A stretch of 64,000 nucleotides of DNA, from NCBI RefSeq assembly GCF_003018255.1, contig NZ_CP027440.1, one strand, 5' to 3'. This stretch comes from Escherichia coli. GTDB lineage: Bacteria > Pseudomonadota > Gammaproteobacteria > Enterobacterales > Enterobacteriaceae. The position numbers and the translations under genes are program-made. The stretch's first letter is position 1. Each line of letters opens with the position of its first letter. Positions 6,199-39,239 of this stretch are shown here, piece by piece. The notes under the pieces are model-generated. The model made no database searches. It saw only the letters and a program-made list of their open reading frames with translations, and was not told the DNA's origin.

Positions 6199-7620
6199 TT
6201 AAACAATGTCCAGCGTGCCCAGGCGGTATTTCCGCTGATAGATAAACGAGGTGAGTACAATCGGGATGATGATGGCGATAGCCATTGCCAGCGCAAACAC
6301 CTGCCAGTAGCTCGGTTGAATCGAGAGAATTCCCGGCAGGCCGCCTACGCCGATGCCATTCGCCATAACGCCGTTCAGGCCGCATAGCAATCCTGCCAGA
6401 CCAGAACCAATCATCGCGCACAGCATCGGGAAGCGATATTTCAGGTTGATGCCGTACATAGCAGGCTCAGTGACTCCAAGCCAGGCGGAGATAGCGGCAG
6501 GCACGGAGATCTCGCGTTCATTGTGCTTGCGGCTGGAAATGATAATGCCTATCACGGCGGAACCCTGAGCGATATTCGACAGCGCAATCAGCGGCCACAC
6601 TGGCGTACCACCCATGCTTTGAATCATCTGCAAATCAATAGCAAGCGTGGTCTGATGTACGCCGGTGATCACCAGCGGGGCGTACAGGAAGCCAAACAAT
6701 GCCGCGCCAATCGGAGCAAAGCTGCCGGTCATCAGGTGACGTACCGCAAAGGCAACGCCATCGCCAATCATGCGACCAAACGGACCAATCAGCGCATGGG
6801 CGAGGAACACCGCGAGGATCAGCGAACAAACGGGCACCACCACCAGATAGAGGTAATCCGGCACGATGCGCTTAAGACGAGTTTCAATAACGCCCAGCGC
6901 CAGCCCGGCTAACAGTGCCGGGATCACCTGCGCCTGATAGCCCACTTTGGCGATGCTGAACATGCCAAAGTCCCACACTTCCGGCAGCTGCTGCCCGAGC
7001 AGATAAGCGTTCATCAGCTGTGGAGAAACCAGCGTTACGCCAAGCACGATACCAAGGATCGGCGTGCCGCCCATTTTTTTCACCGCTGACCAGCAAATCC
7101 CGACCGGCAGGTAGAAGAAGATCGCTTCACCGATCAACCACAGAAAATCGTAGATCGTTTGCAGGGAAGGGTACATTTGCGCCAGCGTTTGACCGTTGCT
7201 CATGGGCAAATCGCCGATCACATTGCGAAAACCGAGGATCAAACCGCCGCTAATCAACGCGGGCAGCAACGGGAAGAAAATCTCCGCGAAATGAGAGATC
7301 AACTGCTCATGCCATTTCATATTCTGCCGGGCGGCTTTTTTTACCTGCTCTTTATCAACCTGCGCCTGTCCGGTTGACGCTATCAGTGCTTGATAGTAAT
7401 CACCCACGTTGGTGCCAATCACCACCTGAAATTGCCCGGCATTGGTGAAACAGCCTTTCACCATGGGGAGTTGCTCAATTTCTTTCGGTCTGGCATTGGC
7501 CGGTTGGTTGAGGACAAAGCGCAGACGAGTAATACAGTGGCTCACCGTCGCAATATTGCCGCGCCCGCCGACCAGTTCAATCAACCGATCGATATCCGTT
7601 TGGTTTATTTTGCTCATCAT
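6199..7620 (-). CDS. treB: PTS trehalose-specific EIIBC component
   Basis: 473 aa membrane protein, PTS EIIB cysteine motif region; tre operon synteny. Confidence 0.93.
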   Translation of the reverse strand: MMSKINQTDIDRLIELVGGRGNIATVSHCITRLRFVLNQPANARPKEIEQLPMVKGCFTNAGQFQVVIGTNVGDYYQALIASTGQAQVDKEQVKKAARQNMKWHEQLISHFAEIFFPLLPALISGGLILGFRNVIGDLPMSNGQTLAQMYPSLQTIYDFLWLIGEAIFFYLPVGICWSAVKKMGGTPILGIVLGVTLVSPQLMNAYLLGQQLPEVWDFGMFSIAKVGYQAQVIPALLAGLALGVIETRLKRIVPDYLYLVVVPVCSLILAVFLAHALIGPFGRMIGDGVAFAVRHLMTGSFAPIGAALFGFLYAPLVITGVHQTTLAIDLQMIQSMGGTPVWPLIALSNIAQGSAVIGIIISSRKHNEREISVPAAISAWLGVTEPAMYGINLKYRFPMLCAMIGSGLAGLLCGLNGVMANGIGVGGLPGILSIQPSYWQVFALAMAIAIIIPIVLTSFIYQRKYRLGTLDIV

Positions 7621-32589: not shown

Positions 32590-32674
32590 GCCGAAGTGGC
32601 GAAATCGGTAGACGCAGTTGATTCAAAATCAACCGTAGAAATACGTGCCGGTTCGAGTCCGGCCTTCGGCACCA
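32590..32674 (+). tRNA. leuX: tRNA-Leu (anticodon CAA)
   Basis: 85-nt sequence GCCGAAGTGGCGAAATCGGTAGACGCAGTTGATTCAAAATCAACC...GGTTCGAGTCCGGCCTTCGGCACCA with cloverleaf arms and encoded CCA. Confidence 0.95.
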
Positions 32675-32896: not shown

Positions 32897-34573
32897 ATGG
32901 CACTAACAGATCGCGCTATAGTCCACGCCAAGCCTTGTGGCAAGCCGTATAAGCTCAGTGACTCGCATGGACTTTACCTGCTGGTTAACCCTAACGGTTC
33001 AAAACGCTGGTACATCAAGTACCGCTTTGTAAACAAAGAGAAAAAGCTCGCTTTAGGCCCTTATCCGCTTTTGACGCTTGCACAGGCAAGACGCATGCGT
33101 GAAGAGGCACAATTATTGCTGATTTCCGGCATCGATCCGAGTGCACGCCGAAAAGCAGAACGCCTTGCGATAACGCCGGAACATACGTTTGAGTCTGTGG
33201 CACGTGAATGGGTCACCAGTAACGTGAACTGGTCGGCGGAACATAAGAAGCGGGTGCTGCGTTATTTCGAGCTTTACGTATTCCCCACGAACGGCAGCTG
33301 TGACATCACCAAAATGAAGGTCAAAGATCTGCTGGTGCCCATCAAGGAAGTGGAGAAAGCGGGCAAACTGGATGTTGCTTCCCGGCTTCAGCAGCGCACT
33401 GCCTGCGTGATGCGCTACGCCGTCCAGAACGGCATTATCGATCATAACCCTGCATCAGATTTAACCGGCGCGGTCTCCACGCCCAAAGTACGGCATCACC
33501 CGGCGTTGGATCTGAATCTTATCCCTGATTTCCTGGAAAGAATCGACGATTACAAAGGCCGTCAACTGACTCAACTGGCGGTAAAACTGGCACTGCTGCT
33601 GTTTATCCGCTCCAGCGAACTGCGCTTTGCCCGCTGGGATGAAATTGATCTGCGTAACGCCATGTGGACCATCCCCGCTGAGCGTGAGCCGATCCCCGGC
33701 GTTAAATATTCAGCGCGTGGGGCGAAGATGCACTCCCCACACCTGGTCCCATTGTCACGTCAGGCCATCGAACTGCTGCACGAGGTGCGGCAGCATTGCC
33801 GACCGGGAACTGAACTGGTGTTCCCCGGCGATCACAATTACCGCAAGCCGATGAGTGAAAACACCATCAACAAAGCGCTGCGGGTGATGGGCTACGACAC
33901 CCAGAAAGATGTCTGTGGCCACGGTTTTCGCACTATGGCCTGTAGCGCGCTGGTGGAGTCGGGGCTGTGGTCAAGCGACGCGGTAGAGCGCCAGATGAGC
34001 CATCAGGAGCGCAAGCGCGTGCGTGCGGCGTATATCCACAAGGCGCAGCATCTCGAAGAACGTTGGGAGATGATGCAGTGGTGGGCGGATTATCTGGATG
34101 CAAACCGGTTCAGGCATGTTGTGCCGTATGGCTTCAAAAAGTCGCCGGGAGGCGCACTCGACCATATGAGTTTCCAGGAGCGCAATGACCGGCAGCTAGA
34201 GGAGCTGAAAGCCAGAATACTGGCTGACTCGGAATGGCTGACGGCGTCTGAATTATCCGCAAAAGCGGGCTTTCGTTCCGCCGATCCTGATGCTGGTCCG
34301 AAAGGCTGGAAAGCCGCCGGGAAGATATTCTCGCTGAAGGTCGATGGTGAGGATTTATACCCTGATTATGTTCTGGATGAGAAAATGCGGCCTCTCAAGG
34401 TTGTCCGTTTGATTCTTTCACTGTTTAAGGAGCGTAAAACACCGTGGGGGCTGGCTATCTGGTTTGGCTCGGCTAATCGCAGGTTGAGAGGTGGGAGGCC
34501 GAAAGACCTGCTGATTTCGAAGTCAGAGTTGGTTCTGATGGCGGCGCAGGAGGAGGTGGAGTCGGGGGAGTAG
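32897..34573 (+). CDS. P4-type tyrosine integrase with ~150-aa C-terminal extension
   Basis: 558 aa; N-terminal arm-binding region, catalytic HGFR and Tyr (AAYIH) region at ~aa 350-375; extension ends in a GGRPKDLL-type motif. Confidence 0.85.
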   Translation: MALTDRAIVHAKPCGKPYKLSDSHGLYLLVNPNGSKRWYIKYRFVNKEKKLALGPYPLLTLAQARRMREEAQLLLISGIDPSARRKAERLAITPEHTFESVAREWVTSNVNWSAEHKKRVLRYFELYVFPTNGSCDITKMKVKDLLVPIKEVEKAGKLDVASRLQQRTACVMRYAVQNGIIDHNPASDLTGAVSTPKVRHHPALDLNLIPDFLERIDDYKGRQLTQLAVKLALLLFIRSSELRFARWDEIDLRNAMWTIPAEREPIPGVKYSARGAKMHSPHLVPLSRQAIELLHEVRQHCRPGTELVFPGDHNYRKPMSENTINKALRVMGYDTQKDVCGHGFRTMACSALVESGLWSSDAVERQMSHQERKRVRAAYIHKAQHLEERWEMMQWWADYLDANRFRHVVPYGFKKSPGGALDHMSFQERNDRQLEELKARILADSEWLTASELSAKAGFRSADPDAGPKGWKAAGKIFSLKVDGEDLYPDYVLDEKMRPLKVVRLILSLFKERKTPWGLAIWFGSANRRLRGGRPKDLLISKSELVLMAAQEEVESGE

Positions 34574-34735
34574 GAATGGTTACTCAACCCTGAAAGAATG
34601 CGTCCAACTACTCTTTACCCTTCTTTCTTTAATGGAAAATGACGTTTGGAAGGTTGAATAAGGCATCGCATTTCTGGCGGTCTTTTTTTGATCATTTACG
34701 TTGCTTCTTTCTTTATTTGTTCATAACATTGTTTT

Positions 34736-34752
34736 GTTCATGATTCATGAAC
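34736..34752. promoter_or_regulatory. 17-bp palindrome GTTCATGATTCATGAAC (candidate operator) just upstream of start codon
   Basis: Perfect 8-bp arms around a central base; candidate -35 TTGCTT / -10 TAACAT immediately upstream; TTGTTCA half-sites repeated nearby. Confidence 0.5.
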
Positions 34753-34756
34753 AGTT

Positions 34757-35770
34757 ATGAGGTGTGAACAAATGAAGGAAGAACAGCTTTTGTCTGATGC
34801 GATAGAGAATCTGCCAAAAGGATTCCATTTGCAGTATGAACATAGCGGTAGACATGGTAAGCACGATGCCTGGGGTAAGCTAACAGGGCCGGATGGTGAG
34901 TCAGTGATATTTGCTCTGGAAGTAAAATTTATCCACCGTAAAGAGTCACTGATGGCTGTTCGCGAACAAATGGTTCGCTTTCCTGCGGATTTTCCTGTGC
35001 TGCTGGTGTGTAACCGCCTGACGTCTGCACTGGCGGAATATTGCGCCGACAGCCAGATCAACTTTATCGATACGGCAGGGAATGCCCGTATCCAGGTTCC
35101 AGGCTTGTATGTGCGGATCGAAGGCCGCTATGAAAAGAAACCCGTTTCCGCCAGCAGTCGTTTTGCTGAAGGGGTGATGAAGCTTCTTTTTGTTTTGCTG
35201 TCTAGCCCAGAGACCCTGAACGAGACTTACCGCAGTCTGGCCGGAAAGGCAGGTATCTCTCTGGGAATGGTCAGCAAGGCTTTTGATTATCTCGAAGCGC
35301 AACGCTATTTCCGCAAATCGAAGAAGGGGCGTCGCTTAATCAATGAAGGCGAGTTAGAGGCTTTGTGGCTGAAAGATTATGCTACAGCTTTGCGCCCTAA
35401 GCTGGATTCGCTTTCTTTATCCGCGCCTGTTTCATGGGATGAGTTGACGCTTGCGTCCGGGGAATACTGGAGCGGCGAGATTGCGGCGGCAAAGCTGAGC
35501 GGAGGATACCTGATACCAGAAAATGGCGTGATTTTTACATCCCATCCGTTGTTACAAAGGCGAAAGGAACTGGGACTAAAACCTGTTCCGGGGGGGAAAC
35601 TACAGCTGATCGCCGGTTTTTGGGGGAACTTTGTACTGAATCACAAAGCCGAGGCGATGCTATGCGTGGCTGAACTGCTGGCAAGCGGGGATGACAGAAA
35701 CTGGGAAACAGCAAGGATAATCAATGACAAATATCTTCACCTTAATGAATCCGATCTCTTCAGCTACTGA
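34757..35770 (+). CDS. Hypothetical protein with N-terminal PD-(D/E)xK-like motif and central winged-HTH
   Basis: 337 aa; GPDGESVIFALEVKF (PD...ExK pattern) and ISLGMVSKAFDYLEAQRYF HTH-like segment; alternative ATG at 34772. Confidence 0.6.
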   Translation: MRCEQMKEEQLLSDAIENLPKGFHLQYEHSGRHGKHDAWGKLTGPDGESVIFALEVKFIHRKESLMAVREQMVRFPADFPVLLVCNRLTSALAEYCADSQINFIDTAGNARIQVPGLYVRIEGRYEKKPVSASSRFAEGVMKLLFVLLSSPETLNETYRSLAGKAGISLGMVSKAFDYLEAQRYFRKSKKGRRLINEGELEALWLKDYATALRPKLDSLSLSAPVSWDELTLASGEYWSGEIAAAKLSGGYLIPENGVIFTSHPLLQRRKELGLKPVPGGKLQLIAGFWGNFVLNHKAEAMLCVAELLASGDDRNWETARIINDKYLHLNESDLFSY

Positions 35771-36533
35771 AACGTTACTGAGTCAGATCAACCGTATTTG
35801 CACCGCTCAGGGGATCCCGTTTTTTATTGCAGGTGCAACGGCTCGTGAAATTCTGCTCCATCATATACACAGCAGAAGTATTGGTCGCCGAACCCGTGAT
35901 ATTGATATTGCCGTCTTTGTGGATAGCTGGCCGAGATTTGATGCGCTTAAAAATGCTTTCCTTGCTGAAGGGGCAGAAGTTGTCCAAGGTAATGCCCATC
36001 GTATGATTGTCAAAGGGATCGAGCTAGATATTATTCCTTTTGGTGGTGTTGCTGAAGGAAATCAAATTGCCTGGCCACCAGAACGTGAGATCATAATGGC
36101 TGTGGATGGATTTGCCGAAGTCTTTTCTCATACCGTAGTTGTGCGGCTGGATAACAGCGAAAATATTCCGTTCTGCTCCTTGCCAGGACTGGCTCTGTTA
36201 AAACTTTTTGCATGGCGTGATCGTGGGCATGGGAGTACTAAAGACGCGACCGATCTCTTTAAGATTATCTGTGAATATGGTGTTATCGAGAATGAACGCA
36301 TCTATGAATCGCCCGTCGAAGGGGAACGCCTGAACTGGGATCCCATACGTATGGGCGCTTTTCTGTTGGGAAGCGATATAGCGACAATTAGTGAACACTC
36401 ATCCTTGCAGGATTTACTCCATCTTGATAAAGAACGCCTGATCGATGTGATAGTACGACAACATGACGTGGGTGATGCTGGGATTGAGCAGATCATCAAT
36501 GATTTCTGGGATGGTATGGCAAGTGATGGTTGA
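35724..36533 (+). CDS. Pol-beta-superfamily nucleotidyltransferase (AbiEii/DUF1814-like motif pattern)
   Basis: 269 aa; AGATA...GRRTRDIDIAVFV then DIIPFGG acidic motif; overlaps upstream gene by up to 47 nt. Confidence 0.6.
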   Translation: MTNIFTLMNPISSATETLLSQINRICTAQGIPFFIAGATAREILLHHIHSRSIGRRTRDIDIAVFVDSWPRFDALKNAFLAEGAEVVQGNAHRMIVKGIELDIIPFGGVAEGNQIAWPPEREIIMAVDGFAEVFSHTVVVRLDNSENIPFCSLPGLALLKLFAWRDRGHGSTKDATDLFKIICEYGVIENERIYESPVEGERLNWDPIRMGAFLLGSDIATISEHSSLQDLLHLDKERLIDVIVRQHDVGDAGIEQIINDFWDGMASDG

Positions 36534-36571
36534 GGATGTAGTTTTAGATGAAATGTTCACAACAGAGTTTT

Positions 36572-36588
36572 GTTCATGAATCATGAAC
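36572..36588. promoter_or_regulatory. Second copy of the 17-bp palindrome (GTTCATGAATCATGAAC) within a ~40-bp duplicated block
   Basis: Block agagttttgttcatgaatcatgaacggtattattgtgaacaatgg matches 34730-34774. Confidence 0.45.
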
Positions 36589-36678
36589 GGTATTATTGTG
36601 AACAATGGCAGGGCGTAACGCCAACTGCCCGATTAAGATGCGCTTATGTTATCAATAATGCCAGCCCAGAGTCAGTCG

Positions 36679-36800
36679 CGACATCATCAAACTGAAGGTC
36701 AAAGGCTTGCTGGTTCCCATCAAAGATAGTGGAGAACGCAGGTAAACTTGATGTTCCACCTTCCACGGCGCACCGCACCTTCGGCATGATGCGCTAATAT
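36679..36800 (+). pseudogene. Internal fragment of a P4-type integrase gene (frameshifted)
   Basis: About 75-80 percent nucleotide identity to 33302-33420 of the intact integrase (by-eye alignment); reading frame breaks. Confidence 0.6.
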
Positions 36801-36840: not shown

Positions 36841-37329
36841 ATGGCTAAAAAAACGGCTCCCTTAGTTCCCGGTACTAATCAGTTGCTTGCTGAGTTTGGC
36901 GAACGGCTTAAGCTGGCGCGACTGCGACGTAAGCTCACAGCGAAGCGGGTTGCTGAGCGAGCCGGGATGTCGCCAATGACCTTGCGTTCTCTTGAATCAG
37001 GCGGGACGGGCGTGACAATCGGCGCTTATTTGTCAGTTATGCAGATTTTGGGTCTTGAAAAGGATCTGAACAAACTTGCCGCTGAGGATGAACAGGGACG
37101 CCAACTTCAGGATTCCCGGCTAATAAATAAAACGCGTGTTTCTCGTCCTGCTGCTATCTCTCACACAAACAGGCATACCGGAAACGTGATAAAAAACGAT
37201 GCCTTCGACAAGCAATTCTCGACATCACAAGAAAAATCAATCGATTCTGAAGTTAAAACAGAAGTCGTGACATCTGCATCTCTTGCTGCACTGCTAAAAC
37301 CAATAAAGAAACCCAGAAAAGGTAGCTGA
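36841..37329 (+). CDS. XRE-family HTH protein
   Basis: 162 aa, N-terminal HTH_3-type segment ([32 protein letters not shown]). Confidence 0.7.
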
Positions 37330-37692
37330 CACGCTGGAATTTTTGTATTGAAACGAGGGACTATAGATTTCGATAGCAAAAAATAAAGCCTGCTGATGAT
37401 ATGTTTAAAAAATGCCAAAAAATGTACATATGGCGTTGATATGTCGATGCTGTAAACATATTTTGGCGTTATGTCGATAAAACTGGTTTTTTTAAACATA
37501 TCGTCATGCTTAATCCAACCGCTCAATCAGTCTTATATCTGTTATGGAAAATGCTTGTAAAATGGCGCGTTCTGCCATCTGGCAATGTTCATATTTACTG
37601 GCTCGAGGAATATCGTCCCCCCTTAATTTCCATGAAAAGTAATTTTAATTCATTTAGTTATTAATCTTTTCTCCGCTGAGAATATGAATTTT

Positions 37693-37710
37693 TATCCCCT
37701 ATAGGGGATA
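37693..37710. promoter_or_regulatory. 18-bp perfect palindrome TATCCCCTATAGGGGATA matching HipB operator consensus TATCC-N8-GGATA
   Basis: Perfect palindrome 30 bp upstream of the HipB-like ATG; a related TATCC...GGATA site at 37724-37737. Confidence 0.6.
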
Positions 37711-37739
37711 TGCTCAAAATATCTATCCTGGGGGATAAA

Positions 37740-38081
37740 ATGAACGTAACCTCACCCAAAATGTTGTCTCAGGCAATCAGGGATGCACGCAAGCAACGTA
37801 ACCTGACCCAGCGTGAAACTGCAGCAAGTATGGGCATGAAACAGTCAACGGTTTCAGAGTTTGAGAACCATCCTGAGGGGACCAGCCTGGATACGCTCTT
37901 TAAGCTGCTTGCCGCTCTGGACCTTAAGCTTCAGGTCGTAAGCTGGAGGGGTAAAAAAACTCTTCTGATGGCTGGGAGCAGGAGTGGTGATCTGTGGAAA
38001 TATGAACAAAAAGGCCATGGCGCTATCCGGACGGAACCACCATTTTCACTAGCGTACCATCTGGATTTCCAGAGCACATAA
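37740..38081 (+). CDS. HipB-like XRE-family HTH regulator with C-terminal extension
   Basis: MNVTSPKMLSQAIRDARKQRNLTQRETAASMGMKQSTVSEFENHPEGTSLDTLFKLLAALDLKLQVV resembles HipB; operator palindrome upstream. Confidence 0.65.
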   Translation: MNVTSPKMLSQAIRDARKQRNLTQRETAASMGMKQSTVSEFENHPEGTSLDTLFKLLAALDLKLQVVSWRGKKTLLMAGSRSGDLWKYEQKGHGAIRTEPPFSLAYHLDFQST

Positions 38082-38207
38082 GAGAAGCTATTTTTGCATC
38101 AGTCAGCGCGTATTCCGTAGCCATCTCGGCAGTAGTTGAAACAGTAAAAAATGCCCCTATTTCATGGCTAATTAACCGCTAAATTCCAGCCATGGAGGAA
38201 ACCACCG

Positions 38208-38474
38208 ATGTCACCTCGGACACACCGCCAGCTCGTAAGTGTTGAAGTGATGTGGCCTGCTCAGACGCTACCGCTTCCCCTACAACAGGTAGTCGAAGCA
38301 TTGAATCAGGGCGAAACGCCCGATCAGATTATTATCCGCATGAACCAACGGGGTCTGCTGGCGTGGCGTGAGGATGCATCCGCGCAGGATACACACGATA
38401 TCTTTCAGGTACGTCTGGACAACCAGAATGAGGCGCGATTTCTCTGCCGCTACGTTACGTTGCCGCTGCACTGA
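38208..38474 (+). CDS. Hypothetical protein (88 aa)
   Basis: ORF with GGAGGA RBS 7 nt upstream of ATG; no recognisable domain. Confidence 0.4.
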   Translation: MSPRTHRQLVSVEVMWPAQTLPLPLQQVVEALNQGETPDQIIIRMNQRGLLAWREDASAQDTHDIFQVRLDNQNEARFLCRYVTLPLH

Positions 38475-38585
38475 TGCCCCTATCCCGGTAACGCGAAATT
38501 GAAGAGTGCTGTTTATCACCGGATAAATTAATATGCTATAAAATAAAGAGTTAGCAAATGTCGTTTCAGGGATGATGAGTTGTAA

Positions 38586-39239
38586 ATGAAGAAGAAACTG
38601 CCAGACCAGCTTTCCAGGGAATGCATTATTGCGGCTATGCGTGCCTATGATGAAGGTGTACGCCACCAGTTCAGCGAGTCCCGGCTGTATGATGTGGTCT
38701 TTGAAGGGCGCAGTTATCCACCGAAAGCTATAGTCGGTATTGCTGCTTCAAATATGACTGGCGTTGAGTTTTCCCCTGAAGATTTTAGTGGTGGTATCAA
38801 GTCGAAATGCGTCAAGTTGCTTACCGATCAAGGGTTCCAGATCGTTGAGAAACATTTGGGTAACGAGCAGCCCGCCATCAGTATTTTTCCTGATGAACTG
38901 CCACCGCAGAGCGTATTTACTGAAGGTGCAGCTACGCAGGTAACGGTTAATCGCTATGAACGCGACCGTAAGGCCCGACAGGCCGCATTAGCCTGGCATG
39001 GTTGTCTGTGCAAAGTATGTGGTATTGATATGATGAAGGTGTATGGCGAGATAGCGAAAGGTTTTATCCATATACACCACCTGATTCCGCTATCAGACAT
39101 CAAAGAGAATTACTCTCTGGATCCCAAAAAAGATTTTATTCCCGTCTGCCCAAATTGCCACGCCATGTTGCATCGGCGTAATCCGCCTTTTTCGCCTGAA
39201 GAATTGAAATCAATTATTGAATATCATGCGGCTCTTTAG
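38586..39239 (+). CDS. HNH endonuclease family protein (McrA-like HNH core; unknown N-terminal domain)
   Basis: CKVCG...HIHHLIPLS...CPNCH motif set typical of HNH nucleases in the C-terminal third. Confidence 0.75.
   Translation: MKKKLPDQLSRECIIAAMRAYDEGVRHQFSESRLYDVVFEGRSYPPKAIVGIAASNMTGVEFSPEDFSGGIKSKCVKLLTDQGFQIVEKHLGNEQPAISIFPDELPPQSVFTEGAATQVTVNRYERDRKARQAALAWHGCLCKVCGIDMMKVYGEIAKGFIHIHHLIPLSDIKENYSLDPKKDFIPVCPNCHAMLHRRNPPFSPEELKSIIEYHAAL

What the first reader, a model, noticed from the sequence alone, without database searches (positions are those of the whole stretch)
34690..36620. Compact overlapping two-gene module (PD-(D/E)xK-like/wHTH protein + nucleotidyltransferase) bracketed by 40-bp repeats with a 17-bp palindrome
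Genes 34757-35770 and 35724-36533 overlap by 26-47 nt, indicating translational coupling. Gene 1 has an N-terminal PD...ExK pattern (GPDGESVIFALEVKF) followed by a winged-HTH-like segment. Gene 2 has a Pol-beta nucleotidyltransferase signature (GRRTRDIDIAV ... DIIPFGG) resembling AbiEii/DUF1814-type toxins. The domain order of gene 1 does not fit a canonical AbiEi antitoxin (wHTH at the N-terminus), so this may be a variant or undescribed toxin-antitoxin/abortive-infection-like pair. The pair sits next to a P4-type integrase, a position often occupied by defence cargo. A ~40-bp block containing the perfect palindrome GTTCATGA(T/A)TCATGAAC occurs just upstream of the start codon (34730-34774) and again 40 bp after gene 2 (36565-36605). 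The upstream copy overlaps a plausible sigma70 promoter, so it is a candidate autoregulatory operator; the second copy may mark a deleted tandem paralogue or a cassette boundary.
Basis: partly seen in the sequence, partly recalled or inferred. Interest (0 to 1): 0.78.

Follow-up and report, generated by a model that had tools for sequence, protein, structure and literature searches.

The report
AbiE-like toxin-antitoxin pair, conserved operator
This is an E. coli copy of a widespread, already annotated but never experimentally studied branch of the AbiE/MenAT toxin-antitoxin family, whose regulator carries an apparently undescribed nuclease-like domain and sits behind a binding-site palindrome that stays the same in very distant relatives.

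Summary
Two genes overlap by 47 nt: gene 1 at 34772-35770 (better start than 34757) and gene 2 at 35724-36533. Two copies of a ~52-bp element bracket them, each with a 17-bp perfect palindrome.

The pair belongs to the COG4861-COG4849 family. Dy et al. 2014 noted it as an AbiE-like pair, and RefSeq labels it "AbiEi family antitoxin / AbiEii toxin". I found no experimental study of a COG4861 protein.

Gene 2 is a DUF1814 nucleotidyltransferase. All four family motifs are present, and an invariant Thr57 aligns with the MenT1 autophosphorylation site.

Gene 1 has three domains: a PD-(D/E)xK-fold N-domain with no Pfam match, a winged helix, and the AbiEi_2 C-terminal domain. This architecture is the norm in about 5,900 sequence clusters.

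The upstream element has four TGTTCA half-sites over a conserved promoter. It recurs in every enterobacterial homologue examined. The exact central palindrome lies next to gene-1 homologues of only 24-36% identity in 60 of 120 metagenome hits.

The downstream copy is an old paralogue found only in this sublineage. Homology between genomic contexts ends just after it.

Verdict: a new member of a known but uncharacterised kind, with two family-level features that seem undescribed. Interest is moderate.

The parts
32590..32674 (+). tRNA-Leu(CAA) (leuX), the integration site of the island. Context only.
   Evidence: ARAGORN; RefSeq annotation
32897..34573 (+). P4-type tyrosine integrase, 558 aa, with an unexplained ~170-aa C-terminal extension. 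Context only.
   Evidence: Pfam Arm-DNA-bind_3, Phage_int_M and Phage_integrase up to residue 384. The whole ORF is 88% conserved in Franconibacter.
34665..34689 (+). Terminator-like hairpin plus T-run that closes the integrase transcript upstream of the module.
   Evidence: Pattern scan. This is a consensus match only.
34701..34729 (+). Inferred sigma70 promoter: -35 TTGCTT (34701-34706), 17-nt spacer, -10 TAACAT (34724-34729). The -10 follows directly after the left outer half-site, which lies at the end of the spacer.
   Evidence: TTGC and TAAnAT sit at fixed positions in all enterobacterial homologous loci, while the surrounding bases vary. It falls below the threshold of the generic scan. 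Inferred, not shown.
34718..34770 (.). Upstream operator. Four TGTTCA half-sites (-> -> <- <-) at 34718-23, 34735-40, 34748-53 and 34765-70. The central 17-nt perfect palindrome is 34736-34752.
   Evidence: Matches itself on both strands with 0 mismatches. Conserved in 14 of 15 genome loci; the Vibrio locus changes all four half-sites symmetrically. The exact central 19-mer lies next to COG4861 genes in 60 of 120 metagenome hits.
34772..35770 (+). Gene 1, 332 aa: COG4861 / AbiEi_2-type putative antitoxin and repressor.
   Evidence: Pfam PF09952, E 4.6e-15. 118 full-length homologues. 5,890 cluster representatives. AlphaFold2 model, pLDDT 90.9.
34772..35131 (+). Gene 1 N-terminal domain (aa 1-120): PD-(D/E)xK (restriction-endonuclease-like) fold with D32, E50-x-K52 and an invariant D100-x-x-G103-N104.
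35159..35341 (+). Gene 1 winged helix-turn-helix (aa ~130-190); recognition helix around S163-K169.
35345..35767 (+). Gene 1 C-terminal AbiEi_2 domain (aa ~192-332), the presumed toxin-neutralising domain.
   Evidence: PF09952 match. Invariant or near-invariant W199, E236, F283, W284, R309. No solved structural relative found.
35724..36533 (+). Gene 2, 269 aa: COG4849 / DUF1814 (AbiEii/MenT-type) nucleotidyltransferase, the putative toxin.
   Evidence: Pfam AbiEii, E 3e-4 for this protein; 40 of 45 family members match, best 5.8e-13. The profile hits MenT1 8an4 at E 3.9e-4. Invariant T57, D59, D61, D102, K160, W164, D174, D177.
36554..36604 (.). Downstream paralogous copy of the operator. Half-sites at 36554-59, 36571-76, 36584-89 (last base degenerate) and 36599-604. 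Central palindrome 36572-36588. No Shine-Dalgarno, weakened -10, and the right spacer is 2 nt shorter.
   Evidence: Shared with Franconibacter (L003) and the E. coli remnant (L002). Absent from the other genome loci where an intact gene-2 ORF allowed its 3' flank to be examined.
36673..36796 (+). Internal fragment of another P4-like integrase gene (aa ~134-173). A decay product that marks a rearranged junction just after the module.
   Evidence: About 80% identical to 33295-33417. tblastn.

Best explanation
The locus is a two-gene toxin-antitoxin module of the COG4861-COG4849 branch of the AbiE/MenAT (DUF1814) family. It sits in a small integrase-bearing islet at tRNA-Leu (leuX), in front of an integrative conjugative element.

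Gene 2 (inferred by homology) is a Pol-beta-fold nucleotidyltransferase. Like MenT1/MenT3/AbiEii, it probably adds nucleotides to tRNA acceptor ends and stops translation.

Gene 1 (inferred) is both the repressor and the antitoxin. Its winged helix binds the four TGTTCA half-sites, probably as a dimer of dimers. These sites cover the -10 element, the predicted transcription start and the stretch between the Shine-Dalgarno and the ATG, so binding would shut off the operon. Its C-terminal AbiEi_2 domain would neutralise the toxin. It may do so by promoting autophosphorylation of the invariant Thr57, the residue aligned with the MenT1 T39 phospho-acceptor, or by occluding the active site.

The 47-nt overlap couples translation of the toxin to that of the antitoxin.

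The N-terminal PD-(D/E)xK-fold domain is a constant third part of the family and its role is unknown. My best guess is oligomerisation or an extra DNA contact, possibly a sensor function.

The downstream copy is an old paralogous binding site kept only in this sublineage. It is most likely the remaining operator and start codon of a lost neighbouring unit, and is probably still bound by the gene 1 protein.

Shown: the gene anatomy, family membership, folds, and conservation of the sites. Inferred: toxicity, tRNA target, repression, phosphorylation, and any phage-defence role.
For: - Family placement. PF09952 on gene 1. PF08843 on gene 2 and on 40 of 45 of its homologues. Gene 2 carries the COG4849 motif III KLxAaxxR as KLFAWRDR, plus motifs I, II and IV, all invariant (motif definitions from PMC3985639). 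The best solved relative is MenT1 (8an4), with T57 aligned to the T39 position (PMC11375011). RefSeq names agree.
- Pairing. All 20 fetched genome loci that hold a full-length gene-1 match (L003-L021, L023) have gene 2 (intact or degraded) immediately downstream, overlapping gene 1's 3' end, by 47 nt where the start is clear. Dy 2014 reports a 99% STRING association.
- TA-like decay pattern. In Serratia sp. DD3, UBA2655, Budvicia and Marinomonas the toxin gene is deleted or frameshifted while gene 1 stays intact.
- Operator. The site is symmetric with 0 mismatches. It is conserved with the -35 and -10 in 14 of 15 genome loci at 43-97% protein identity, and all four half-sites co-vary in Vibrio (GTTCA to TTTCA). 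The exact 19-mer lies next to COG4861 genes of 24-36% identity in 60 of 120 metagenome hits. Among 47 unique loci, the outer-left half-site is present in 44 and the outer-right in 32.
- Precedent. Canonical AbiEi and Rv2827c autorepress through inverted repeats (PMC3985639; PMC7319586 abstract).
- Downstream copy. The three downstream copies group together and keep their half-sites, while their spacers differ at about half the positions.
Against: - No experiment on any COG4861 protein was found, so antitoxin and repressor functions rest on analogy.
- COG4861 has no detectable sequence similarity to the characterised AbiEi (COG5340), and none of the top fold-search hits is described as an AbiEi/COG5340-type antitoxin.
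- The Pfam and PDB matches of this particular gene 2 are borderline (E about 3e-4).
- PADLOC models do not call the pair AbiE, and NCBIfam has no model for it.
- The promoter is below the threshold of the generic scan.
- The explanation gives no necessary role to a well-conserved nuclease-like domain. This may mean the mechanism is richer than a plain TA.
- The central palindrome in the metagenome set was fixed by the search pattern, so only its association with the gene and the outer half-sites count as independent evidence.
Confidence: 0.75

Rival explanations
1. Gene 1 is not just an antitoxin. It is an active, sequence-directed nuclease or DNA sensor, a PD-(D/E)xK domain fused to a winged helix as in DpnI-type enzymes. 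In this reading the module is an anti-phage system. Gene 1 would recognise or cut foreign DNA, or be titrated by it, and thereby release the nucleotidyltransferase toxin.
For: - The N-domain has a restriction-endonuclease-like fold, with D32, E50 and K52 at the canonical positions in this protein.
- D100, G103 and N104 are invariant in 151 of 151 representatives, which points to a selected site.
- PD-(D/E)xK plus winged-helix fusions are known as type IV restriction enzymes (PMC11037411, abstract).
- An E. coli remnant of the module lies among type I RM and BREX genes.
Against: - The canonical triad is complete in only 81 of 151 family representatives (D 77%, E 66%, K 82%). Catalysis is therefore not conserved family-wide.
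- The protein's own operator would be a self-target.
- There are no PADLOC or PHROGs hits.
- The palindrome is not enriched in viral contigs: 3 hits.
Confidence: 0.13
2. The pair is a signalling system of the CBASS type. The nucleotidyltransferase would make a nucleotide second messenger that activates the nuclease-like gene 1 protein through its C-terminal domain.
For: The only support is the general layout: a nucleotidyltransferase next to a protein with a nuclease-like domain and a C-terminal domain of unknown function.
Against: - Gene 2 belongs to DUF1814/AbiEii, and MenT1 is its nearest solved relative. It matches no CD-NTase family.
- Gene 1 has no SAVED, CARF or other known sensor domain.
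- Gene 1 is kept intact where gene 2 has decayed. This fits an antitoxin or regulator, not an effector that needs its cyclase.
- No PADLOC CBASS hit.
Confidence: 0.03
3. The downstream repeat has no present function. It would be a neutral scar of a deleted tandem module or of palindrome-stimulated illegitimate recombination.
For: - It lacks a Shine-Dalgarno, has a weakened -10 (CAACAG in the window), and its right spacer is 2 nt shorter.
- It is absent from most homologous modules; Buttiauxella has an ordinary terminator there instead.
- An integrase-gene fragment lies 70 nt further on, showing local decay.
- Homology between three contexts stops within about 10 nt of it.
Against: In three lineages that differ by about 14% in nucleotide sequence, the four half-sites are almost unchanged, while the spacers differ at about half their positions. 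That pattern suggests continued selection for binding. With only three sequences, the test is weak.
Confidence: 0.35

Closest known systems
COG4861-COG4849 gene pair (Pfam AbiEi_2 PF09952 + AbiEii PF08843), noted by Dy et al. 2014 (PMC3985639)
   Same: - Gene 1 matches PF09952.
- Gene 2 carries the COG4849 motif III KLxAaxxR and the Pol-beta catalytic aspartates.
- The regulator gene precedes the NTase gene.
- The 332-aa three-domain length is the family norm.
   Different: Nothing structural differs; this locus is a member. The family itself has only been described bioinformatically. In the papers I could search, I found no description of its N-terminal PD-(D/E)xK-fold domain or of its operator.
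Canonical AbiE of Streptococcus agalactiae / Lactococcus (AbiEi COG5340 + AbiEii COG2253)
   Same: - Bicistronic antitoxin-then-toxin operon.
- DUF1814 nucleotidyltransferase toxin with motifs I-IV.
- Antitoxin with a winged helix plus a C-terminal domain.
- Inverted repeats in the promoter, which AbiEi binds for autorepression (PMC3985639).
   Different: - Gene 1 shows no sequence or fold match to AbiEi or Rv2827c.
- The winged helix is central, not N-terminal, and an extra nuclease-fold domain precedes it.
- The toxin is of the COG4849 subfamily, not COG2253.
- The operator has four short half-sites, not two 23-bp inverted repeats.
- PADLOC AbiE models do not hit.
MenA1-MenT1 of Mycobacterium tuberculosis (PDB 8an4/8an5)
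   Same: MenT1 is the only characterised COG4849 toxin and the best solved match to gene 2. Thr57-x-Asp59-x-Asp61 aligns with MenT1's T39-R-D41-x-D.
   Different: - MenA1 is a small protein without a winged helix and is not a COG4861 member (bioRxiv 10.64898/2026.01.19.700257).
- MenT1 is 196 aa against 269 aa here.
- The match is weak (E 3.9e-4).
PD-(D/E)xK nucleases (AF1548, XisH, NucS, CdiA-CT tRNases, DpnI-like nuclease-wH fusions)
   Same: - The alpha-beta-beta-beta-alpha-beta core.
- Aspartate before strand 2, and E-x-K at the end of strand 3.
   Different: - No sequence-profile match.
- The triad is degenerate in about half the family.
- The invariant motif is instead D-x-x-G-N after strand 5.
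- No activity data exist.

Membership tests
COG4861-COG4849 AbiE-like pair | Upstream gene matches PF09952 (AbiEi_2 / DUF2186) | tested here: met
   E 4.6e-15, model positions 1-142 of 143. All listed homologues of >=245 aa carry PF09952; only three shorter fragments (222-282 aa) lack it.
COG4861-COG4849 AbiE-like pair | Downstream gene is a COG4849-type NTase with motif III KLxAaxxR | tested here: met
   KLFAWRDR at residues 160-167. K160 and W164 are invariant; R167 is at least 90% conserved. Motif definition quoted in PMC3985639.
COG4861-COG4849 AbiE-like pair | The two genes are adjacent, regulator first | tested here: met
   Window, genome loci, and many metagenome loci.
Canonical AbiE (Dy et al. 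2014) | Antitoxin is a COG5340 AbiEi: N-terminal wHTH plus C-terminal domain | tested here: not met
Canonical AbiE (Dy et al. 2014) | Toxin is a DUF1814 NTase with motifs I-IV | tested here: met
   PF08843 at E 3e-4 here; 40 of 45 homologues at E <= 1e-3. D59, D61, D102, K160, D174 and D177 are invariant.
Canonical AbiE (Dy et al. 2014) | Negative autoregulation through inverted repeats in the promoter | tested here: inconclusive
   Conserved, co-varying inverted half-sites overlap a conserved -35/-10. Binding and repression were not measured.
Canonical AbiE (Dy et al. 2014) | Toxicity neutralised by the antitoxin; abortive-infection phenotype | not testable with these tools
   The only indirect evidence is that the toxin gene has decayed while gene 1 is intact in 4 lineages.
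PADLOC AbiE / any PADLOC system | Both proteins match the system's HMMs | tested here: not met
   Gene 1 has no hit at E <= 1. Gene 2 hits only PDC-M21B, at E 0.0035.
MenAT1-type (type VII-like) TA | Phospho-acceptor Thr/Ser two residues before the first catalytic Asp | tested here: met
   T57 is invariant in 45 of 45 sequences and aligns with MenT1's T in RFTRDVDI. The role of T39 comes from PMC11375011. Phosphorylation itself was not tested.
MenAT1-type (type VII-like) TA | Small MenA1-like antitoxin | tested here: not met
   Gene 1 is a 332-aa, three-domain COG4861 protein. MenA1 lacks a wHTH and is not a COG4861 member.
PD-(D/E)xK phosphodiesterase superfamily (gene 1 N-domain) | Alpha-beta-beta-beta-alpha-beta core fold | tested here: met
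PD-(D/E)xK phosphodiesterase superfamily (gene 1 N-domain) | Catalytic D...(D/E)xK at the start of strand 2 and in strand 3 | tested here: inconclusive
   Present in this protein (D32, E50, K52). Complete in only 81 of 151 family representatives.
PD-(D/E)xK phosphodiesterase superfamily (gene 1 N-domain) | Sequence-profile match to a known PD-(D/E)xK family | tested here: not met
   No Pfam family matches any of 28 N-domain sequences at E <= 1e-3.
CBASS | CD-NTase cyclase plus an effector with a nucleotide-sensor domain | tested here: not met
   The NTase is DUF1814, not a CD-NTase. Gene 1 has no sensor domain. No PADLOC hit.

The most novel reading that the evidence does not exclude
The COG4861 "antitoxin" may really be a DNA-sensing nuclease-like protein. 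Its winged helix reads one fixed 19-bp palindrome (TGTTCATGAWTCATGAACA) across phyla. Its restriction-endonuclease-fold domain, with an invariant D-x-x-G-N site, would act on or sense DNA. The family would then couple a DpnI-like DNA-recognition module to a tRNA-modifying toxin, rather than being a plain autoregulated TA. Orphan copies of the site would be functional targets or decoys. These include the copy after gene 2 here, copies in other genomes, and one in a viral contig.
Probability: 0.12. Interest if true: 0.8.

Novelty: new member of a known kind. Interest (0 to 1): 0.45.

Why it matters
The COG4861-COG4849 pairs form one of the two large branches of the AbiE/MenAT family: about 5,900 clusters at 50% identity. 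All mechanistic work so far concerns the other antitoxin types.

This E. coli copy is a convenient model:
- It is small.
- It comes from a host that is easy to work with.
- Its predicted operator is clearly defined.
- Its candidate phospho-acceptor (T57) is easy to mutate.

Two family-level points from this analysis can be tested directly and appear undescribed.
1. The antitoxin always carries a restriction-endonuclease-fold domain with an invariant D-x-x-G-N motif.
2. The same 19-bp palindrome, flanked by outer half-sites, lies next to family members that share only about 30% protein identity. I would not expect a TA operator to stay unchanged over that distance (general expectation from my own knowledge, not tested here). 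It suggests the site does more than local autoregulation.

For genome annotation, the result also warns that "AbiEi family antitoxin" is a label by analogy here, not by demonstrated homology.

Tried and rejected
- NCBIfam: no model hits either protein.
- PADLOC: no AbiE call; only a weak PDC-M21B hit.
- PHROGs: no hit, so there is no sign the pair is phage-borne.
- PDB by sequence, single sequence and profile: gene 1 gives nothing beyond generic HTH matches at E > 0.3.
- Foldseek against PDB with the full model: no hit at E <= 1e-3.
- First search for related loci attempt failed because alignment A1 was too diverse. A second attempt found the queue full. It succeeded with A2.
- Plasmids: only one distant hit, on a Pantoea megaplasmid, so the module is not typically plasmid-borne.
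- attR search: I looked for a direct repeat of the tRNA 3' end near 36611-36680 that would bound a mini-island. None was found.
- L074, with two palindromes, looked like a tandem module. It is an inverted duplication with frameshifts, probably an assembly artefact.
- ORFs next to "orphan" palindromes in metagenome loci do not belong to one common family.
- My recollection that the integrase C-terminal extension resembles an Xre/DUF2384 antitoxin domain was not supported by Pfam.
- The downstream palindrome as an intrinsic terminator: the hairpin is weak (-7.4 kcal/mol for the core) and lacks a proper U-run.
- Supplements of the PD-(D/E)XK survey (PMC3424549) are not held, so I could not check whether DUF2186 is listed there.
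Full report
**1. What is in the sequence**

The window is Escherichia coli chromosome. The region lies directly after yjgR, ahr and tRNA-Leu(CAA) (leuX, 32590-32674), in an island that continues into a PFGI-1-type integrative conjugative element.

Both reported ORFs are present.
- Gene 1. The better start is ATG 34772. It has GAGGTG 8-13 nt upstream, RefSeq uses the same start, and it aligns with the starts of homologues. The protein is 332 aa.
- Gene 2. It starts at ATG 35724, preceded by AAGGA, and encodes 269 aa.
- Overlap. The two genes overlap by 47 nt. The same overlap recurs in the homologous loci where the start is unambiguous.

The repeat is real. GTTCATGAWTCATGAAC occurs exactly twice in 64 kb, and no shuffle of the window gave a match even with 2 mismatches. 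The flanks are also similar: 38 nt at 87% identity, then 16 nt after a 2-nt indel.

It has four TGTTCA half-sites arranged -> -> <- <-, symmetric about 34744 (34718-34770). The 53-nt pattern matches on both strands with no mismatch.

**2. Gene 2**

- Pfam gives AbiEii (PF08843) at only E 3e-4 for this sequence. However, 40 of 45 homologues match, the best at 5.8e-13.
- An alignment of 45 homologues (A3) has these invariant residues: T57, D59, D61, D102, K160, W164, D174 and D177.
- These correspond to DUF1814 motifs I-IV. K160-L-F-A-W-R-D-R167 is exactly the COG4849 motif III KLxAaxxR quoted by Dy et al. (PMC3985639).
- The family profile finds one meaningful solved relative, MenT1 of M. tuberculosis (8an4, E 3.9e-4). 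"gRaTrDiDi" aligns with MenT1 "RFTRDVDI".
- The aligned threonine is T39 in MenT1. It is the residue autophosphorylated on antitoxin binding, which switches the toxin off (PMC11375011).

Gene 2 is therefore a COG4849-type DUF1814 nucleotidyltransferase. By homology, the expected activity is nucleotide addition to tRNA acceptor ends. This is inferred, not shown.

**3. Gene 1**

- Pfam AbiEi_2 (PF09952, E 4.6e-15) covers only the C-terminal ~140 aa.
- NCBIfam, PADLOC, PHROGs and PDB sequence searches give nothing.
- The word-indexed search returned 118 homologues. Nearly all are 320-360 aa and aligned end to end, from Enterobacterales, Shewanella, Vibrio and metagenomes.
- The exhaustive profile search found 5,890 cluster representatives at E <= 1e-3 and 1,860 at E <= 1e-30. 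Nearly all of the best 150 matched over nearly the full profile, positions ~3-325. The architecture is the family norm, not a local fusion.
- AlphaFold2 with 48 sequences gives a confident model (pLDDT 90.9). It has three parts: an N-domain (aa 1-120), a disordered linker (123-128), a winged helix (about 130-190) and a C-terminal domain.
- The N-domain modelled on its own (pLDDT 89.3, pTM 0.84) gives a clean list of restriction-endonuclease-fold proteins:
  - AspBHI, Card1, PaqCI, HamA, NucC, VRR_NUC, Hjc
- D32 sits just before strand 2, and E50-x-K52 at the end of strand 3. These are the canonical positions.
- Across 151 representatives, D32 is 77% conserved, E50 66% and K52 82%. The full triad is present in 81 of 151. 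By contrast, D100, G103 and N104 ("IDTAGNA") are invariant in 151 of 151.
- No Pfam family matches any N-domain sequence.

**4. The operator**

In all enterobacterial homologous loci (protein identity 43-97%) the same layout precedes gene 1:
- TTGC (-35)
- 17 nt downstream, TAAnAT (-10), immediately following the outer-left half-site TTGTTCA
- the central (T/C)GTTCATGAWTCATGAACA
- a purine-rich Shine-Dalgarno
- GTGAACA and then the ATG

Both outer half-sites are present in 14 of 15 distinct loci.

The Vibrio locus is the exception, and it is informative. All four half-sites change together: TTTTCACG...TTTTCATGATTCATGAAAA...CGTGAAA. This is the signature of a site that co-evolves with its binding protein.

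In 60 of them a COG4861 gene lies adjacent to the palindrome, although these proteins are only 24-36% identical to the E. coli one. The central sequence was fixed by the query, so it does not count as evidence. The association with so rare a gene family does count, and so do the outer half-sites: among 47 unique loci, left in 44 and right in 32. In several loci the whole 53 nt is a perfect palindrome.

With the -10 at 34724-34729, transcription should start at about 34736, the first base of the central palindrome. A bound protein would then block RNA polymerase. Autorepression through promoter inverted repeats is established for AbiEi and Rv2827c (PMC3985639; PMC7319586, abstract seen). Here it is inferred.

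**5. The downstream copy**

A second copy follows gene 2 in only three places:
- this window
- Franconibacter helveticus (L003, protein 97% identical)
- a remnant present in 47 of 5,426 complete E. coli genomes

The remnant keeps only the last ~250 nt of a gene-2 homologue plus the repeat, at 86% identity. It sits between a degraded M48 peptidase gene with type I RM genes on one side and ParB/Srx and BREX genes on the other. Among the other modules whose intact gene 2 allowed the 3' flank to be read, none has a copy there, and Buttiauxella (L004) has a visible GC-rich hairpin followed by a T-run, an ordinary terminator, in its place.

The three downstream copies resemble each other more than they resemble the upstream copies. 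They share the central A, the left flank TTTTAGAT.AA, a right spacer 2 nt shorter and the absence of a Shine-Dalgarno. The half-sites are almost unchanged, while the spacers differ at about half their positions. It is therefore an old paralogue that probably still binds the protein, not a recent duplication.

Homology between the window and L003 runs from inside the tRNA (32632) to 36611. Homology with the E. coli remnant ends at 36602. All three contexts therefore diverge within about 10 nt after ...GTGAACAATG.

Seventy nucleotides further on lies a ~125-nt internal fragment of another P4-like integrase gene (36673-36796), so this junction has been rearranged.

I cannot decide between two readings: a relic of a lost downstream unit, or a functional second site (looping, roadblock, or control of whatever lies downstream). 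No attR-like repeat of the tRNA end was found there.

**6. Evidence for toxin-antitoxin behaviour**

All 20 genome loci with a full-length gene-1 match have gene 2 (intact or degraded) directly downstream. In four lineages gene 2 is damaged while gene 1 is intact:
- Serratia sp. DD3: deletion of residues 56-113, which includes the catalytic aspartates
- UBA2655: frameshift
- Budvicia: deletion of residues 41-164
- Marinomonas: truncation

Preferential loss of the toxin with retention of the partner is what I would expect of a TA pair (an argument from general TA biology; no source for it was examined here). It argues against a cyclase-effector (CBASS-like) arrangement.

**7. Comparison with what is known**

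- Dy et al. 2014 already described COG4861-COG4849 as a highly associated pair parallel to AbiE (COG5340-COG2253). They predicted a regulator followed by an NTase.
- Later work on MenT1-4, AbiEii and the Serratia AbiE systems concerns COG5340, AbiEi_3, AbiEi_4, DUF4095 or MenA1 antitoxins. None is a COG4861 protein.
- Two recent papers mention COG4861 antitoxins as still to be understood.
- RefSeq labels the two genes "AbiEi family antitoxin" and "AbiEii/AbiGii toxin family protein".

The locus is therefore a new member of a known, bioinformatically described kind. It fails the membership test for canonical AbiE on the antitoxin, but it very probably works like AbiE.

In the searchable literature I found no mention of the nuclease-fold N-domain or of the operator. 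This is absence of evidence in an incomplete library.

**8. Distribution and context**

- The complete module is in 6 of 5,426 complete E. coli genomes, always chromosomal.
- It has one distant plasmid hit.
- Neither protein matches any phage protein family (PHROGs). The three viral-contig hits for the palindrome are orphan sites; the one examined (L145) has no adjacent module.
- The integrase neighbour is shared only with Franconibacter. "Defence cargo next to an integrase" is therefore circumstantial.

**9. Verdict**

The most likely mechanism is an autoregulated AbiE/MenAT-like toxin-antitoxin module. Two features make it more than routine: the constant nuclease-like domain, and the operator that stays the same in very distant relatives. 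A richer mechanism remains possible.

Interest is 0.45.

Noticed in passing
window 32897-34573: The P4-type integrase ORF is 558 aa. The Pfam integrase domains end at residue 384, and a ~170-aa C-terminal extension has no Pfam match. The whole ORF is 88% conserved in Franconibacter helveticus, yet RefSeq flags the E. coli gene as "incomplete, missing C-terminus".
   Followed up: partly
window 36673-36796: A ~125-nt internal fragment of a second P4-like integrase gene (aa ~134-173, about 80% identical to 33295-33417) lies just after the downstream repeat. It points to stacked or decayed islands at leuX.
   Followed up: partly
L002 6001-6317 (E. coli RM10466 and 46 other complete genomes): A remnant consists of only the last ~250 nt of a gene-2 homologue plus the downstream operator copy (86% identity). 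It sits in the leuX island between an M48 peptidase pseudogene with type I RM genes and ParB/Srx and BREX genes.
   Followed up: partly
metagenome loci L054, L059, L129, L043, L082/L100, L134, L141, L144 (around the palindrome): Complete four-half-site elements occur with no detectable COG4861 gene in the fetched DNA. Some are perfect 53-57-nt palindromes. They may be orphan operators, sites used by other regulators, or artefacts of short contigs.
   Followed up: partly
L145 about 7317-7369 (57-kb viral contig IMGVR_UViG_3300024054_000020): An intergenic copy of the four-half-site element lies in a phage-like contig, upstream of a 302-aa ATPase-like ORF, with no module nearby. Whether it is chance, a regulatory site or a decoy is unknown.
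   Followed up: partly
L039, L086, L127 (around the palindrome): The same 19-bp palindrome sits directly after a near-consensus TTGACA-N17-TACAAT promoter, in front of a short ORF with a strong Shine-Dalgarno. No COG4861 gene is detectable in the fetched DNA of these loci.
   Followed up: no
L005-L008 (Serratia sp. DD3), L011, L014, L023: The toxin gene is internally deleted, frameshifted or truncated while the gene-1 homologue is intact. Serratia sp. DD3 carries the same degraded module on four different contigs.
   Followed up: partly
window 36841-39239: Downstream of the module lie two Xre-type HTH genes (36841-37329 and 37740-38081), an 88-aa ORF with no match, and an HNH endonuclease gene (38586-39239). 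After these come the MobH relaxase and the conjugation genes of the ICE.
   Followed up: partly
L024 22646-23165 (same E. coli genome, beyond the window): The ICE also carries a RelE/ParE-CopG type II toxin-antitoxin pair and a chaperone-usher fimbrial operon with a tyrosine-type invertase.
   Followed up: no
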